A stretch of 64,000 bases of DNA from contig CAZYPW010000007.1 of assembly GCA_964649615.1 (NCBI GenBank), positions 8,734 through 72,733 on the forward strand, in the 5' to 3' direction. The notes under the pieces were generated by a model. The model saw nothing but the letters and a program-made list of their open reading frames with translations, made no database searches and was not told the DNA's origin. Positions within the stretch are counted from its first letter, which is position 1. Each line of letters begins with the position of its first letter. Shown one piece after another: positions 1 through 51,328 of this stretch. The translations under genes and the position numbers were made by a program. Source of the DNA: an uncultured Gammaproteobacteria bacterium. Its GTDB lineage: Bacteria; Patescibacteriota; Microgenomatia; Daviesbacterales; UBA10151.

Positions 1-1708
1 TGATGCCAATCGTGCCTTGATGGGAACTCAGATGCAATGCCAGGCAGTCCCACTGCTTCTTCCTCAATCTCCAATTGTGGGAACTGGTATGGAAAGAATT
101 GTCGCTGATAATATGGGCAGGGTAGTTAGGGCGCCTGAAGATGGAACTGTCACGTATGTTGATGGCAAAAAGTTGGTTCTGAAAGGTAAAAAAGATGAAT
201 ACAAATATGAGATCAGAAAATTTGTCCATTCTCCTCAGGGAACTTGTTATTCTCAAAAACCTATTGTTAATTTAGGTCAAAAGGTCTCCAGAGGAGATCT
301 TTTAATTGATGGAGCAGCCACAGATAAAGGAGATTTGGCACTGGGTACTAATTTATTGATTGCTTATATGAGTTTTGAAGGTTTGGGTTATGAAGATGCT
401 ATTGTGATTTCGGATAGGCTGGTTAAAGATGATGCCCTAACTTCAATTCATATTGAAGAGTATGAAATTGATGTGGTGGAAACCAAATTAGGCCCTGAGG
501 AGCTGACACGGGATATCCCTAATGTATCTGAAGATGCTTTAGCTAATTTAGATGAGGCGGGTTTAATCAGGATTGGAGCAGAGGTTGGGCCAAGTGATAT
601 CTTGGTTGGTAAAGTTCAACCAAAAGGAGAAACAGAGCTAACAGCTGAAGAAAGATTACTTAGAGCAATATTTGGAGAAAAAGCCAAAGAAGTAAGAGAC
701 ACCTCTTTGAGAATTCCCCATGGAGAAAGAGGAACGGTGATTGGAATCCAAATTCTCTCCAGAGATAAAGGAGATGAATTAGACACCGGCACTTTAATGA
801 GAATTAAAGTCAAAGTAGCCCAGATGAGAAAAGTGACTGAAGGAGATAAGTTGGCAGGCAGGCATGGCAACAAAGGAGTAATTTCCAAAATTGTGCCAAT
901 TGCTGATATGCCTCATTTAGAAGATGGAACACCGGTTGATATTGTCATCTCTCCCCTCTCTGTTTTATCCCGTATGAATTTAGGTCAGCTTTTAGAAACC
1001 CATTGGGGTTTTGCAGCCTCAAAATTAGGCTATAAAGTAGCAGCTCCTGTTTTTGAAAAGATTCCTGAAGATAAATTAATAGAAGAATTGAAAAAAGCAG
1101 GATTGTCTGTTGATGGTAAAGTCAGGCTGATTGATGGCAGGTCTGGCCAGGCTTTTGATAGATCAATTGTGGTGGGCAGAAACTATATTCTAAAACTAAT
1201 CCATATGGTGGAGGAAAAGATTCATGCCCGCTCCACTGGCCCTTATTCTTTGGTGACTCAACAGCCTTTGGGTGGAAAAGCTCAAATGGGAGGACAAAGA
1301 TTAGGAGAGATGGAAGTTTGGGCACTGGAAGCATATGGAGCAGCCCATATTTTACAGGAAATGTTAACTATCAAATCTGATGATGTGGTAGGGAGAGCTA
1401 AGGCCTTTGAGGCAATAGTCAAAGGGATTGATATCCCACAGGCCTTGATTCCAGAATCCTTTAAGGTTTTAGTTAAAGAATTACAAGCATTGGGCCTATC
1501 AGTGGATACAATAGGGGCAAAAATTATTCAAGCTCCTGAGGTTGAAGAAAAGCCGTCAATTGTAGAAGAAGTTGCAGAGTTAGAACAGGCTTTAGAGGCT
1601 AAAGTTTCTGCATCTGAGGAAGAGTTAAGTTTGCAGTCAAGCCCCTTTGAAGTAGTTGACCCCGATAAAATTGGGGTTGGTGTAGAGAAAGAAAAGGAGG
1701 CAGAATGA
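1..1708 (+). CDS. rpoB: DNA-directed RNA polymerase beta subunit, C-terminal part (gene starts upstream of window)
   Basis: Frame open from the window edge. Conserved RpoB C-terminal blocks ([61 protein letters not shown]). Acidic C-terminal tail. Stop overlaps the rpoC start (ATGA). Confidence 0.92.
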
Positions 1709-5397: not shown

Positions 5398-5410
5398 ACC
5401 CTTGTCAAAA

Positions 5411-5431
5411 ACTCTCCACTGGAGACTTTTT
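5411..5431 (+). terminator. hairpin (TCTCCA-C-TGGAGA) followed by TTTTT, 14 nt after the rpoC stop; part of repeated element copy A
   Basis: Inverted repeat plus T-run read directly from the sequence. Confidence 0.4.
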
Positions 5432-5496
5432 GCAAGCGATCTCCCTCGTTCAAATAATTTTTTAAAGATTATAAATTATTTGAACTTCAGTCCGAT

Positions 5497-28022: not shown

Positions 28023-29432
28023 ATGAGTAATGTTCCTCCAGAGAAGATTTTTAAAAGCTATGATATCAGAGGCGTATACCCTGAAGAAATAAATGAAGAA
28101 TTTGCTATTCCTATCACCAGAGCAATTTATAAACTAATACTAGATCAATTAAATTCTGTGGGTCCTTTAACTGTAGCTGTGGGGCGTGATATGAGACTAT
28201 CCTCCCCTGCCCTATTTGAAAATGTTACTAAAACATTAATTAAGTTAGGTGCTAAAGTAATAGATTTAGGAATTGTTTCTACCCCCACCTTTTATTATGC
28301 AGTTTTTAAAGGGGGGTTAGATGGAGGTGTACAGATTACTGCTTCCCATAATCCCAAAGAATATAACGGCATAAAAATAGTTAGAAAATCTCCTACAGGT
28401 TTAGTCAAGATTGGTAAATCTACTGGCATGGATGATATTAAGAAAATGGCAATTGAAGGAATAGATCTACCAAAAGTAGATGGTGGATCTATTACCAAAA
28501 AGATGGGAGTAGTTGTGGAGGAAGTAGAAAATGCTTTAAGGATTGCCGGAAACCCAATCTTAAATTCCTATAAAGTTGTGGCTGATGCTGCTAATGCTTT
28601 GGGGGCTTTATATATTGAGGAGTTATTTAAACATATCCCCGGTGAATTAATAAAGATGAATTTTGAACTGGATGGAACTTTTCCTGCACATCAGGCAGAT
28701 CCTTTGCAAAAAGAAACTTTAGTTGATTTGCAAAAAAGAGTAGTTAAAGAGGGTGCTGATTTAGGGTTGGCTCCGGATGGGGACGGAGATAGACTATTTT
28801 TTATTGATGAAAAAGGTCAAATTGTACAGCCATCTTTTATTACAGCACTTGTGGCCAGAGAACTTTTGAAAAAACATAAAGGCGAAACAATTTTAGCAGA
28901 GATCCGTTATATCTTAACTCCTAAAAGGATTGTAGAAGAATTGGGGGGAACATTTGTTATTACCAAGGTAGGCCATGCTTTTATTACAGAACAACTTCAT
29001 AAAACTAAAGGAATATTTGCAGGTGAATCATCAGGACATTATTTCTTTAGGGAAACAGGCAATGCTGAGTCTCAACTGCCAGTTATTTTGACAGTTTTAA
29101 AAGTTATGACAGAGGAAGGTAAAAAATTATCAGAAATAGTAGAAGATTTAAGGAGATCTCATGAGTCAGGGGAGTTTAATTTTAGAGTGAAAAACACCCC
29201 GGAGGTTTTAGCAGCTATAAAAAAAGAGTTCTCTGATGGGCAAATAGATGAATTAGATGGAGTGGCCATCTCATATACAGATTGGAGACTGTCTTTAAGA
29301 TCTTCTAATACAGAACCATTACTAAGGTTAAATGTAGAAGCTGATGTTGGTACCTCTCTGGAGGATAAAAAACAAAAAGTAATAGATTTAATTAAAAAGC
29401 ATGCCATCTTAGAAGATGGTAGTGGTCATTAG
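28023..29432 (+). CDS. phosphoglucomutase/phosphomannomutase family phosphohexomutase
   Basis: Active-site TASHNPKEYNGIK, metal loop APDGDGDR, sugar-binding GESSGHYFF. Confidence 0.82.
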   Translation: MSNVPPEKIFKSYDIRGVYPEEINEEFAIPITRAIYKLILDQLNSVGPLTVAVGRDMRLSSPALFENVTKTLIKLGAKVIDLGIVSTPTFYYAVFKGGLDGGVQITASHNPKEYNGIKIVRKSPTGLVKIGKSTGMDDIKKMAIEGIDLPKVDGGSITKKMGVVVEEVENALRIAGNPILNSYKVVADAANALGALYIEELFKHIPGELIKMNFELDGTFPAHQADPLQKETLVDLQKRVVKEGADLGLAPDGDGDRLFFIDEKGQIVQPSFITALVARELLKKHKGETILAEIRYILTPKRIVEELGGTFVITKVGHAFITEQLHKTKGIFAGESSGHYFFRETGNAESQLPVILTVLKVMTEEGKKLSEIVEDLRRSHESGEFNFRVKNTPEVLAAIKKEFSDGQIDELDGVAISYTDWRLSLRSSNTEPLLRLNVEADVGTSLEDKKQKVIDLIKKHAILEDGSGH

Positions 29433-29471
29433 GTACTTGTAAAAAATATTTAAATATGATTTAATATTTTT

Positions 29472-29603
29472 GCATCAAGAGTTCATGTACCATACGGTAC
29501 GTGACGGCAACCGGAAAGAACGGTGCCAAATCCTTAGAGAGGAAGATGCGTCCTGAGAAAAGTCGAAGGAAAACTTTAAGCCTCTCGAGTGAGAGGTTTT
29601 TTT
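29472..29603 (+). promoter_or_regulatory. S-box (SAM-I clan) riboswitch with intrinsic terminator, upstream of metK
   Basis: P1 GCAUC/GAUGC, J1/2 AAGAG, P3/J3-4 GGCAACC-GGAAAGAAC-GGUGCCAAAUCC. P2 is a plain GUACC-AUA-CGGUAC hairpin with no kink-turn block. P4 is minimal. Terminator CCUCUCGAGUGAGAGG+U7 at 29581-29603. The aptamer GAGAGG can alternatively pair with the terminator 5' arm. Confidence 0.65.
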
Positions 29604-29708
29604 AATCGGACTGAAGTAAAAAACAATTATAATTTTCTTAAATTGTTTTTTGCAAGGGAGATCGCTTGCAAAAATTGCGAATAAGCAATTTTTGACAAGG
29701 GAAAAAAC

Positions 29709-30824
29709 ATGATTAAGACTAATGGTATAACAACATTTACATCAGAATCAGTTTGTGCTGGCCATCCGGATAAAATCTGCGACCAGATTTCTGATGCTAT
29801 TTTAGATGCGGTTTTATCCCAAGATCCTCAAGGCAGAACAGCCATCGAATGTTTGGCTGGAAACAACAGACTGATTATTGCAGGAGAGGTAGGGGCAAAA
29901 GCGAAAGTAGATTTTAAAAAAATTGCCAGAGACCAAATTAAAAGGTTGGGTTACACTGATCCTAAATTTAACTTTTCAGATAAATCCCCTATTGAAGTTT
30001 TTGTCCATGAGCAATCTCCGGAAATTGCAGTGGGAGTAAAGAAAAAAGGTGCAGGTGATCAGGGTATGATGTTTGGATATGCCTGCAGGGAAACAACTGC
30101 TTTAATGCCGCTGCCTATTATGATGGCACACTCTTTGACCAAAAGAATGGATACTGTCAGGGAAGAAAATATTGTCAAATACTTAAGGCCGGATGGAAAG
30201 TCTCAGGTGACTATAGAATATAGAAATGGTAAACCAGATAAAGTATTGCAGGTTGTGATAGCGGTGCCCCATAAAGAAACTGTTAACTTAGATGAAGTGA
30301 GAGAAGATGTCTATAATTTTATAGTTGTGCCGGTTTTGGAAATGTATGGATATAAAATTAAGAAAAAGGATTTAATTGTTAATGGTACAGGAATCTGGCA
30401 CAATGGCGGGCCGGCATCTGATTGCGGTTTAACTGGTAGGAAAATTGTAGTTGATACATATGGAGGATATGCCAGAGTGGGTGGTGGAGCATTTTCCGGG
30501 AAAGAACCGTCAAAAGTGGATAGGGGCGGAGCATATGCTGCCAGATTTTTGGCTAAAAATATTGTGGCAGAGGGTTTAGCAGAAAAAGCAGAAGTGAGAC
30601 TGGCATATTTTATCGGGGCTAAAAAACCCACTATGGAAGATGTGGAAACTTTTGGCACTAACAAAAAGAGCCATAAAGTAATAATCTCTTTTATGAATAA
30701 GATTTTAGATACATCTGTTTCAGGAATTTTGCAGGGATTGGATTTACAAAGACCAATTTATTTACCAACTGCTGCATATGGTCACTTTGGCCGTGAAGAA
30801 TTCCCCTGGGAAAGAATAGTTTAA
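29709..30824 (+). CDS. metK: S-adenosylmethionine synthetase
   Basis: FTSESVCAGHPDKICDQISDAILDA, GAGDQGMMFGYA, GGGAFSGKEPSKVDRGGAY. Confidence 0.95.
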   Translation: MIKTNGITTFTSESVCAGHPDKICDQISDAILDAVLSQDPQGRTAIECLAGNNRLIIAGEVGAKAKVDFKKIARDQIKRLGYTDPKFNFSDKSPIEVFVHEQSPEIAVGVKKKGAGDQGMMFGYACRETTALMPLPIMMAHSLTKRMDTVREENIVKYLRPDGKSQVTIEYRNGKPDKVLQVVIAVPHKETVNLDEVREDVYNFIVVPVLEMYGYKIKKKDLIVNGTGIWHNGGPASDCGLTGRKIVVDTYGGYARVGGGAFSGKEPSKVDRGGAYAARFLAKNIVAEGLAEKAEVRLAYFIGAKKPTMEDVETFGTNKKSHKVIISFMNKILDTSVSGILQGLDLQRPIYLPTAAYGHFGREEFPWERIV

Positions 30825-50952: not shown

Positions 50953-51328
50953 GGTGCCTAGGAAGCGAGTAAGCCAGATTCTGTTTTAGATGATATTTAT
51001 CTTCAGTGTGATTATTAGTCACTCTGATCCGCCTTATGGCGAGATGCTCCTTACTTTGATTATCAAGCGAGCAGCTTAATCAATTCTAGGATTGCAGCAG
51101 GGAGGATTGCCCTTCGACTCGCTTCGCTCACTCAGGGTTATAACCCTGAGTATTTGAAACTAATCGAAAACCCGTTAGCTTGGTCGTTTCATTCGGCGCA
51201 ACCCGATTCGTCACTGTTGCTCTAAACTTTGTCTTACGACCATCCGCCTTTCGGCGGACACCTTGCTCTATGCTGTCTGGACTTTCCTCTCCGCCAAAGG
51301 CGGAGTAATCATCCTTCTTCCTAGGCTT
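50953..51328 (-). ncRNA. rnpB: RNase P RNA (bacterial type A)
   Basis: The reverse complement carries a 10-bp P1 (GCCUAGGAAG/CUUCCUAGGC), P3 hairpin CUCCGCCUUUGGCGGAG, P4 5' strand GAGGAAAGUCCAGAC, CAUAGAGCAAGGUG, and P4 3' strand ACAGAAUCUGGCUUA. Confidence 0.85.

What the first reader, a model, noticed from the sequence alone, without database searches (positions are those of the whole stretch)
29472..29603. Variant S-box (SAM-I clan) aptamer with a plain-hairpin P2 and no P4
The P1 (GCAUC/GAUGC), J1/2 (AAGAG), P3 (GGCAACC-GGAAAGAAC-GGUGCC) and J3/4 (AAAUCC) signatures of SAM-I are present. The kink-turn and pseudoknot-bearing P2 (GGUGGAGGGA...GGCCC) is replaced by a simple GUACC-AUA-CGGUAC hairpin, and P4 is essentially missing. 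The terminator/antiterminator logic (GAGAGG competing for CCUCUC) is intact. This may be a minimal SAM-I or SAM-I/IV-like variant.
Basis: seen in the sequence. Interest (0 to 1): 0.55.

Follow-up and report, generated by a model that had tools for sequence, protein, structure and literature searches.

The report
Ordinary SAM-I/IV riboswitch before metK
This is a SAM-sensing RNA switch of the already published SAM-I/IV class, sitting in front of the SAM synthetase gene of a Candidatus Daviesbacteria genome; it is real and probably works, but its design is not new.

Summary
Window 29467-29603 (+) is a genuine SAM-clan riboswitch in the metK leader of a Candidatus Daviesbacteria (Patescibacteria) genome. 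Its best Rfam match is SAM-I/IV (RF01725): 38.7 bits, 2.4 bits under the gathering score. That explains why the whole-window scan reported nothing. Five orthologous leaders in the same gene context score 43.5-50.2, above the threshold. A covariance model built from 12 orthologues, without the window, hits only this site (91.3 bits, E 3e-27).

"No P4" is wrong. There is a 5-bp P4 hairpin inside the junction (29531-29543) and a second hairpin after P1 (29551-29570). A short pseudoknot is also possible between the P3 loop (AAAG) and the 3' tail (CUUU).

This layout is exactly the published SAM-I/IV consensus (Weinberg 2010 alignment): undivided P2, optional P4, post-P1 hairpin and a pseudoknot from the P3 loop to the 3' tail. 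It is therefore a member of a known class, not a new variant.

Inferred mechanism: SAM stabilises the aptamer and hides GAGAGG (29537-29542) inside P4, so the terminator (29578-29603) forms. Without SAM, GAGAGG pairs with CCUCUC (29581-29586) and metK is read through.

The parts
29437..29465 (+). Putative promoter: -35 TTGTAA (29437-42), 17-nt spacer counted to TTTAAT, extended -10 TGATTTAAT (29457-65). Transcription would start about at P1.
   Evidence: The CTTGyN -35 and TrTGGTTTAaT -10 sit at a fixed distance before P1 in all 13 Daviesbacteria leaders. The consensus scanner did not call it. Inferred.
29472..29476 (+). P1 5' strand GCAUC
   Evidence: Pairs with 29545-49. 98.5% of cells paired in 13 sequences; the outer pair covaries (GC/AU/GU).
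29477..29482 (+). J1/2 AAGAG(U), conserved SAM-core junction
   Evidence: Nearly invariant in alignment A1: AAGAG in 12 of 13, AGGAG in L208. Matches the RF01725 consensus.
29483..29504 (+). P2: plain 9-bp hairpin, loop AUAC, no internal loop or k-turn
   Evidence: RNAfold. Every one of the first 6 pairs from the base shows 3-5 pair types among 15 relatives.
29506..29527 (+). P3 GGCAACCG / CGGUGCC with loop GAAAGAA (29514-20). AAAG 29515-18 is the proposed 5' strand of pseudoknot PK-2.
   Evidence: P3 is 96% paired, and the 59-72 pair covaries GC/UA. The PK-2 columns are 74% paired. In the window PK-2 is only 4 bp, no better than shuffled loops.
29531..29543 (+). P4: 5-bp in-junction hairpin UCCUU-AGA-GAGGA. 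GAGAGG 29537-42 is the antiterminator strand.
   Evidence: RNAfold. RNAalifold and the pair counts show covariation (UA/CG, UA/GC), 92.7% paired. GAGAGG:CCUCUC duplex is -10.9 kcal/mol; 0.8% of shuffles do as well.
29545..29549 (+). P1 3' strand GAUGC
29551..29570 (+). Hairpin after P1 (the final stem-loop of Rfam's SAM-I/IV model, here called P5): UCCU/AGGA with tandem G.A/A.G, then GA/UC, loop AAAG
   Evidence: RNAfold. All 4 basal pairs covary in relatives. Aligned to the last stem of RF01725.
29574..29577 (+). CUUU: proposed 3' strand of PK-2, pairing with AAAG 29515-18
   Evidence: Same position as the pseudoknot in the published consensus. Longer in relatives: 8 bp in L208, 7 bp in L217, 7-8 bp in L224.
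29578..29603 (+). Intrinsic terminator: AAGCCUCUC-GAGU-GAGAGGUUU plus a U7 tract. CCUCUC 29581-86 is the contested strand.
   Evidence: Terminator scan: 2 sites found in the scanned 29300-29800 region against 0.2 expected from shuffles; this is the + strand site. Part of the MFE fold. Present in 12 of 15 related leaders.
29709..30824 (+). metK (SAM synthetase), the regulated gene
   Evidence: ORF. 100% identical to NCBI 'methionine adenosyltransferase [Candidatus Daviesbacteria bacterium]', with Pfam PF00438, PF02772 and PF02773.

Best explanation
It is a SAM-I/IV-class (Rfam RF01725, SAM clan) S-adenosylmethionine riboswitch that controls metK by transcription termination, in a Candidatus Daviesbacteria genome.

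The aptamer (29472-29577) is a four-way junction. P1, a plain P2, P3 and a small P4 form the junction. A hairpin follows P1, and there is probably a short pseudoknot between the P3 loop and the 3' tail.

When SAM is bound, P1, P4 and the pseudoknot are stabilised. GAGAGG (29537-42) stays locked in P4, and the terminator hairpin with its U7 tract (29578-29603) forms and stops RNA polymerase before metK. When SAM is low, GAGAGG pairs with CCUCUC (29581-86), the 5' arm of the terminator. This blocks the terminator and lets metK be transcribed.

Shown here: the sequence, the fold, covariation, orthology, family assignment, and the competing pairings with their energies. Inferred: SAM binding itself and the direction of the switch.
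For: Family:
- Best Rfam match is SAM-I/IV, full-length, 38.7 bits, E 6.5e-5.
- Orthologous leaders in the same PGM/PMM-leader-metK context score 50.2, 47.1, 44.9, 44.5 and 43.5 bits against a gathering score of 41.1.
- A model built without the window finds only this site: 91.3 bits, E 2.7e-27.

Structure:
- 89% of cells are paired against about 40% when partners are slid. 10 pairs change on both sides. 0 of 500 shuffles reach the observed covariation score.
- P2 is replaced wholesale yet is always a hairpin.
- RNAalifold independently recovers P1, P2, P3, P4 and the post-P1 hairpin.

Architecture matches the published consensus.

Switch:
- For the nascent transcript to 29588, the aptamer fold (-38.8) and the antiterminator fold (-38.7 kcal/mol) are equal in energy. 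At 29592 the antiterminator fold is the MFE.
- The full-length MFE has aptamer plus terminator (-50.5), against -42.3 with the antiterminator forced.
- Complementarity between the P4 3' half and the terminator 5' arm is 6-9 bp in the six leaders with the small UCCUU..GAGAGGA-type P4, and beats shuffles.

Context: metK is the classic target of SAM riboswitches (established knowledge). A conserved promoter lies just upstream.
Against: - The score is 2.4 bits below Rfam's gathering threshold.
- The pseudoknot is only 4 bp (AAAG:CUUU) in the window, and 88% of shuffled loops do as well. Across 13 leaders, cognate loop-tail pairs are not better than non-cognate ones (permutation p 0.23-0.49).
- Relatives with long GC-rich P4 (L208, L221, L224) and L228 lack significant P4-terminator complementarity, so that detail of the mechanism is not universal.
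- A 100-nt spacer separates the terminator from the ATG.
- No binding or termination experiment exists.
Confidence: 0.9

Rival explanations
1. It is a degenerate classical SAM-I (S-box, RF00162) riboswitch that lost the k-turn and shortened P4. It works like a Firmicutes S-box without any SAM-IV-type pseudoknot.
For: It has a four-way junction with an in-junction P4, like SAM-I. The more distant relatives L002 (49.8 bits, above the gathering score), L003 (25.6) and L224 (24.3) match RF00162 best. The PK-2 pseudoknot is not statistically supported in the window.
Against: The best clan match is SAM-I/IV, not SAM-I; a lower-scoring overlapping hit to another family of the same clan was dropped. 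P2 has no internal loop, and the L2 loop AUAC has no complement in J3/4, so PK-1 cannot form. The hairpin after P1 and the AAACUU tail are conserved and covary, which SAM-I does not need. The published SAM-I/IV consensus already includes an optional P4.
Confidence: 0.05
2. The hairpin with its U-tract at 29578-29603 is simply the constitutive terminator of the upstream phosphomannomutase-like gene, and the upstream aptamer-like sequence is a non-functional relic.
For: The element lies 40 nt after the stop codon of the upstream ORF. A 100-nt spacer containing a repeated element separates it from metK.
Against: All SAM-core positions are intact and invariant among 13 leaders. A conserved promoter lies between the upstream stop codon and P1. 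Helices covary, meaning they are under selection. The antiterminator complementarity is better than shuffles. Three orthologues keep the aptamer without any terminator and overlap the start codon instead.
Confidence: 0.03
3. It has the same aptamer fold but senses a different ligand, for example SAH or another adenosyl compound.
For: Ligand binding was not tested here. The genome is from a reduced, poorly studied lineage.
Against: The core nucleotides match the SAM-I/IV consensus, whose SAM-binding core is shared with SAM-I and SAM-IV. The metK context fits SAM feedback.
Confidence: 0.02

Closest known systems
SAM-I/IV riboswitch (Rfam RF01725; 'SAM-I-IV-variant' of Weinberg et al. 2010, Genome Biol 11:R31; SAM-I/IV class crystal structure of Trausch et al. 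2014, cited)
   Same: It has the conserved core (AUCAAGAG, GCAACC, GGUG, AGAUG) and an undivided P2 without k-turn or PK-1. It also has the optional in-junction P4, a hairpin after P1, and a 3' tail positioned to pair with the P3 loop. It sits in a SAM-metabolism leader.
   Different: The score is just under Rfam's gathering threshold (38.7 against 41.1). The pseudoknot is only 4 bp. The expression platform here is an intrinsic terminator whose competitor strand lies in P4. Three Daviesbacteria orthologues instead use the pseudoknot and post-P1 hairpin to cover the start codon.
SAM-I / S-box riboswitch (RF00162)
   Same: Four-way junction P1-P4, the same SAM-binding core motifs, terminator/antiterminator control, and metK as a target.
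   Different: There is no k-turn in P2 and no P2-loop:J3/4 pseudoknot. P4 is only 5 bp. There is an extra hairpin after P1. RF00162 was not the reported best clan match in the window.
SAM-IV riboswitch (RF00634)
   Same: A hairpin after P1 and a PK-2-type pairing between the P3 loop and the 3' tail, with a shared ligand core.
   Different: SAM-IV has a divided P2 (P2a/P2b) with PK-1 and lacks P4. Here P2 is undivided, PK-1 is absent and P4 is present.

Membership tests
SAM-I/IV (RF01725) | Covariance-model score at or above the Rfam gathering score (41.1 bits) | tested here: not met
   The window scores 38.7 bits, E 6.5e-5, with a full-length match. Five syntenic orthologues score 43.5-50.2 and pass. 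The miss is 2.4 bits.
SAM-I/IV (RF01725) | Conserved SAM-clan core: P1, J1/2 AAGAG, P3 with GCAACC/GGUGC, AGAUG closing P1 | tested here: met
   All are present and invariant or nearly invariant in 13 orthologues.
SAM-I/IV (RF01725) | P2 undivided (no internal loop or k-turn) and no PK-1 | tested here: met
   A 9-bp continuous hairpin. The L2 loop AUAC has no complement in J3/4. This is the definition given.
SAM-I/IV (RF01725) | Hairpin immediately 3' of P1 | tested here: met
   29551-29570. Aligned to the model's last stem. All 4 basal pairs covary.
SAM-I/IV (RF01725) | Pseudoknot (PK-2) between the P3 loop and the 3' tail | tested here: inconclusive
   AAAG 29515-18: CUUU 29574-77 lies at the homologous position but is only 4 bp and no better than shuffles. 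It is 7-8 bp in L208, L217 and L224.
SAM-I/IV (RF01725) | Optional in-junction P4 helix | tested here: met
   29531-43. It covaries and is present in the published SS_cons.
SAM-I/IV (RF01725) | Selective SAM binding | not testable with these tools
   Needs in-line probing or ITC.
SAM-I / S-box (RF00162) | K-turn in P2 and PK-1 between the P2 loop and J3/4 | tested here: not met
   P2 is a plain hairpin, and nothing is complementary between AUAC and AAAUCC.
SAM-I / S-box (RF00162) | Covariance-model score at or above 44.4 bits | tested here: not met
   No gathering-level hit in the window. In the sensitive scan the reported clan match was SAM-I/IV at 38.7 bits, and one lower-scoring overlapping clan match (family not shown) was dropped.
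SAM-IV (RF00634) | Divided P2 with PK-1, and no P4 | tested here: not met
   P2 is undivided and P4 is present. Definition.

The most novel reading that the evidence does not exclude
Within Daviesbacteria, the 'optional' in-junction P4 of SAM-I/IV may not be mere decoration. It may be the module that couples the aptamer to a transcription terminator.

All 12 related leaders with a terminator have P4. The 3 leaders that lack a terminator, and instead bury the start codon in the post-P1 hairpin or pseudoknot, have none. In the window and five close relatives, the P4 3' half is the antiterminator strand.

Whole hairpin modules also appear to have been swapped between P2, the P3 extension and the post-P1 hairpin. 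Together these would make the set a compact natural example of modular rewiring of one riboswitch between transcriptional and translational control.
Probability: 0.35. Interest if true: 0.3.

Novelty: new member of a known kind. Interest (0 to 1): 0.15.

Why it matters
It matters little for riboswitch biology, because the class, its fold and its target gene are all established.

Practical value:
- It shows that Rfam's gathering cut-off misses some genuine SAM-I/IV riboswitches in Patescibacteria. The window scores 38.7 bits, several orthologues score 30-40, and L001 is not detected at all.
- It provides 13 orthologous Daviesbacteria leaders, plus two more distant relatives, in which one aptamer is wired either to a terminator or to the start codon. 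That set could be used to study how expression platforms evolve.
- It confirms that these reduced genomes keep SAM feedback control of metK.

Tried and rejected
- The whole-window Rfam scan at gathering thresholds found no SAM family. A sensitive local scan was needed.
- The genome scan with the MetK protein returned mostly distant metK loci. Only L001-L003 carried related leaders.
Nearly all were classical k-turn SAM-I; only L123 was of the window's kind.
- The pseudoknot statistics (cognate against non-cognate loop/tail, and shuffled loops) were not significant overall, because both partners are A/U-rich. I therefore do not claim PK-2 as shown in the window.
- My first forced-antiterminator fold used coordinates shifted by 2 nt and gave misleadingly poor energies. 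This was corrected.
- Trausch et al. 2014 (PMC4020084) is not held in the library. The architecture was taken from Zhang 2019 and the Weinberg 2010 alignment instead.
- The idea that the CCUGAG...UCGAAGG hairpin is a k-turn or a hammerhead-like core was considered and rejected. It is a symmetric tandem G.A/A.G with no 3-nt bulge and no three-way junction.
- The literature search for riboswitches in Patescibacteria gave nothing relevant.

Full report
**Location and context.** The finding lies in the 276-nt gap between a phosphoglucomutase/phosphomannomutase-like ORF (28023-29432, +) and an ORF at 29709-30824 (+). The second ORF is 100% identical to an NCBI 'methionine adenosyltransferase [Candidatus Daviesbacteria bacterium]' and carries the three S-AdoMet synthetase Pfam domains. 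The element is therefore the metK leader of a Patescibacteria (CPR) genome. That is the classic place for a SAM riboswitch (established knowledge).

- P1: GCAUC 29472-76 with GAUGC 29545-49.
- J1/2: AAGAG 29477-81.
- P3: GGCAACCG with CGGUGCC, 29506-27.
- AAAUCC at 29528-33.
- A terminator at 29578-29599 followed by U7.
- GAGAGG 29537-42, complementary to CCUCUC 29581-86.

The region folds far better than shuffles (z = -5.4). Two statements need correction. Second, P4 is not missing. RNAfold closes a four-way junction with a 5-bp hairpin, UCCUU-AGA-GAGGA (29531-43), and predicts a further hairpin directly after P1 (29551-70).

**Database tests.**
- The whole-window Rfam scan at gathering thresholds reports only RNase P and one tRNA.
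- A sensitive scan of 29380-29760 gives a full-length match to SAM-I/IV (RF01725) at 38.7 bits, E 6.5e-5. The gathering score is 41.1. One lower-scoring overlapping match to another family of the same clan was dropped.
- In that alignment the post-P1 hairpin matches the model's last stem. The P4 hairpin is treated as an insertion in the junction.

**Relatives.**
- The metK protein has many 75-93% identical relatives labelled Daviesbacteria or Microgenomates.
- Fetching their contigs gave 11 distinct leaders, all in the same PGM/PMM-leader-metK arrangement. One more came from a metagenome pattern scan (L123).
- Two more distant leaders came from a genome scan (L001, L003).
- Against Rfam, five orthologues pass the SAM-I/IV gathering score (L216 50.2, L217 47.1, L228 44.9, L212 44.5, L201 43.5). 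Five fall just or somewhat below it (L221 40.1, L123 40.0, L230 38.7, L205 34.1, L208 30.5). L224 matches SAM-I weakly, and L203 had no SAM-clan match at E up to 1.
- L001 is not detected at all at E up to 1.
- A covariance model built from the 12 Daviesbacteria-type leaders without the window finds exactly one site in the 64-kb window: 29467-29582, 91.3 bits, E 2.7e-27. It finds L001 at 59.1 bits and classical SAM-I leaders at only 19-33 bits.

**Structure and covariation.**
- On the 13-sequence alignment, the proposed P1, P3, P4, post-P1 hairpin and pseudoknot have 89.1% of cells paired. Sliding the partners gives 39-43%.
- Ten pairs change on both sides, and 0 of 500 shuffles reach the observed covariation score.
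- P4 is 92.7% paired, with two pairs changing on both sides. All four basal pairs of the post-P1 hairpin covary.
- RNAalifold independently recovers P1, P2, P3, P4 and the post-P1 hairpin.
- P2 could not be counted on the MAFFT alignment. Folding each P2 on its own always gives a hairpin of 5-12 bp, with 3-5 pair types at each of the six basal positions.
- P4 ranges from 3 bp (L228) to 8-9 bp (L208, L224). It is absent in L212, L217 and L230.

**The pseudoknot.** The P3-loop AAAG (29515-18) can pair with CUUU (29574-77) in the tail just after the post-P1 hairpin. The same positions give longer helices in some relatives: UAAAGUUA:UAACUUUA in L208, AUAAGUU:AACUUAU in L217 (which includes the AUG), UUUUAGU:ACUGAGA in L224, and GUUUU:AAAAC in L212 and L230. 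Both partners are A/U-rich, however. In the window, 88% of shuffled loops pair as well, and cognate loop-tail pairs are not better than non-cognate ones (p 0.23-0.49). I rate this feature as positionally conserved and likely by homology, but not demonstrated here.

**Comparison with the literature.**
- Weinberg et al. 2010 describe the SAM-I/SAM-IV variant as sharing the SAM-I/SAM-IV core but lacking the P2 internal loop, with no evident pseudoknot from the tip of P2.
- Their deposited alignment (Additional file 5) carries a consensus structure with P1, an undivided P2, P3, an optional hairpin inside the junction, a hairpin after P1, and a separate pseudoknot line joining the P3 loop to the 3' tail. 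Individual rows either have short in-junction hairpins such as CCCA-UCU-UGGG or lack them.
- Zhang et al. 2019 summarise the class in the same way: P2 not split, no PK-1, and a P4 helix that SAM-IV lacks.
- The window's layout is therefore the published SAM-I/IV layout, not a new or minimal variant.

**Mechanism (inferred).** The antiterminator strand GAGAGG (29537-42) overlaps the loop and 3' strand of P4, so it excludes P4 and with it the junction.
- For the nascent transcript ending at 29588, the aptamer fold (-38.8 kcal/mol) and the fold with GAGAGG:CCUCUC (-38.7) are equal in energy.
- At 29592 the antiterminator fold is the MFE (-40.0).
- At full length the aptamer plus terminator wins (-50.5 against -42.3).
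- This balance is what a ligand-tipped, kinetically controlled OFF switch needs: SAM stabilises P1, P4 and the tail, the terminator forms, and metK is not transcribed.
- The GAGAGG-type complementarity is 6-9 bp and beats shuffles in the window, L123, L201, L203, L205 and L216.
- It is not significant in L208, L221, L224 and L228. By eye, another strand seems to compete there: the 5' strand of the post-P1 hairpin (GGUCC against GGACC), or its 3' strand in L228.
- The three leaders without P4 also have no terminator. In them the start codon lies in the post-P1 hairpin or in the pseudoknot, which suggests translational control.
- A conserved promoter (-35 CTTGyN, extended -10 TrTGGTTTAaT) ends 6-9 nt before P1 in all 13 leaders. 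This argues that the riboswitch heads its own transcript.

**Verdict.** This is a genuine, probably functional SAM-I/IV riboswitch controlling metK by termination. It is a new member of a known class that Rfam's threshold narrowly misses. The 'no P4' description and the implied novelty were not.

Noticed in passing
window 29607-29708 (+) and window about 5399-5494 (-): The 100-nt spacer between the riboswitch terminator and the metK ATG is absent from all orthologous leaders, where the terminator nearly abuts the ATG. It has a 78%-identical inverted copy in the rpoC-rpsL intergenic region. Shared blocks are ATCGGACTGAAGT, TTATAAT, AGGGAGATCGCTTGCAAAAA and TTTTTGACAAGGG. It carries a promoter-like TTGCAA-18-TATAAT that points toward rpsL in one copy and antisense into the riboswitch in the other.
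   Followed up: partly
L217 and L228 (P2), L203 (post-P1 hairpin); window 29551-29570, L123, L205, L003 P3 extension: Whole hairpin modules recur in different helices of orthologous riboswitches. ACGUUCAGUUUACAUGAACGU is P2 in L217 and L228 but the post-P1 hairpin in L203. CCUGAG-N-UCGAAGG (tandem G.A/A.G) is the post-P1 hairpin in the window and L123, is nested twice in L205, and sits inside the P3 extension of L003.
   Followed up: partly
L212, L217, L230 versus the other 12 leaders: Leaders lacking the in-junction P4 also lack a terminator and overlap the start codon with the post-P1 hairpin or pseudoknot. The same three have an A.C mismatch at the second P3 pair (GACAACC/GGUGCC).
   Followed up: partly
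L001 1729-1873: A Patescibacteria metK leader of the same subfamily, with a 40-nt P3 insertion. Rfam does not see it at E up to 1, but the model built here finds it at 59.1 bits.
   Followed up: partly
L172, about 474-560 (+): A classical k-turn SAM-I aptamer in which P4 appears to be deleted altogether (GGTGCCAAATCCAGGCAGATGAG).
   Followed up: no
window 50954-51324 (-): Bacterial RNase P RNA scores only 108.5 bits (gathering score 100) and has large deleted regions.
   Followed up: no
L123 11942-12142 (-): A T-box leader match at 71.6 bits, below the gathering score of 93, on the contig of a close relative.
   Followed up: no
window 29437-29465 and the equivalent position in 12 loci: A strongly conserved promoter-like motif, CTTGyN(-35)...TrTGGTTTAaT(extended -10), lies at a fixed distance upstream of P1 in all Daviesbacteria leaders. 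The sigma-70 scanner misses it because the second hexamer has T at position 2.
   Followed up: partly
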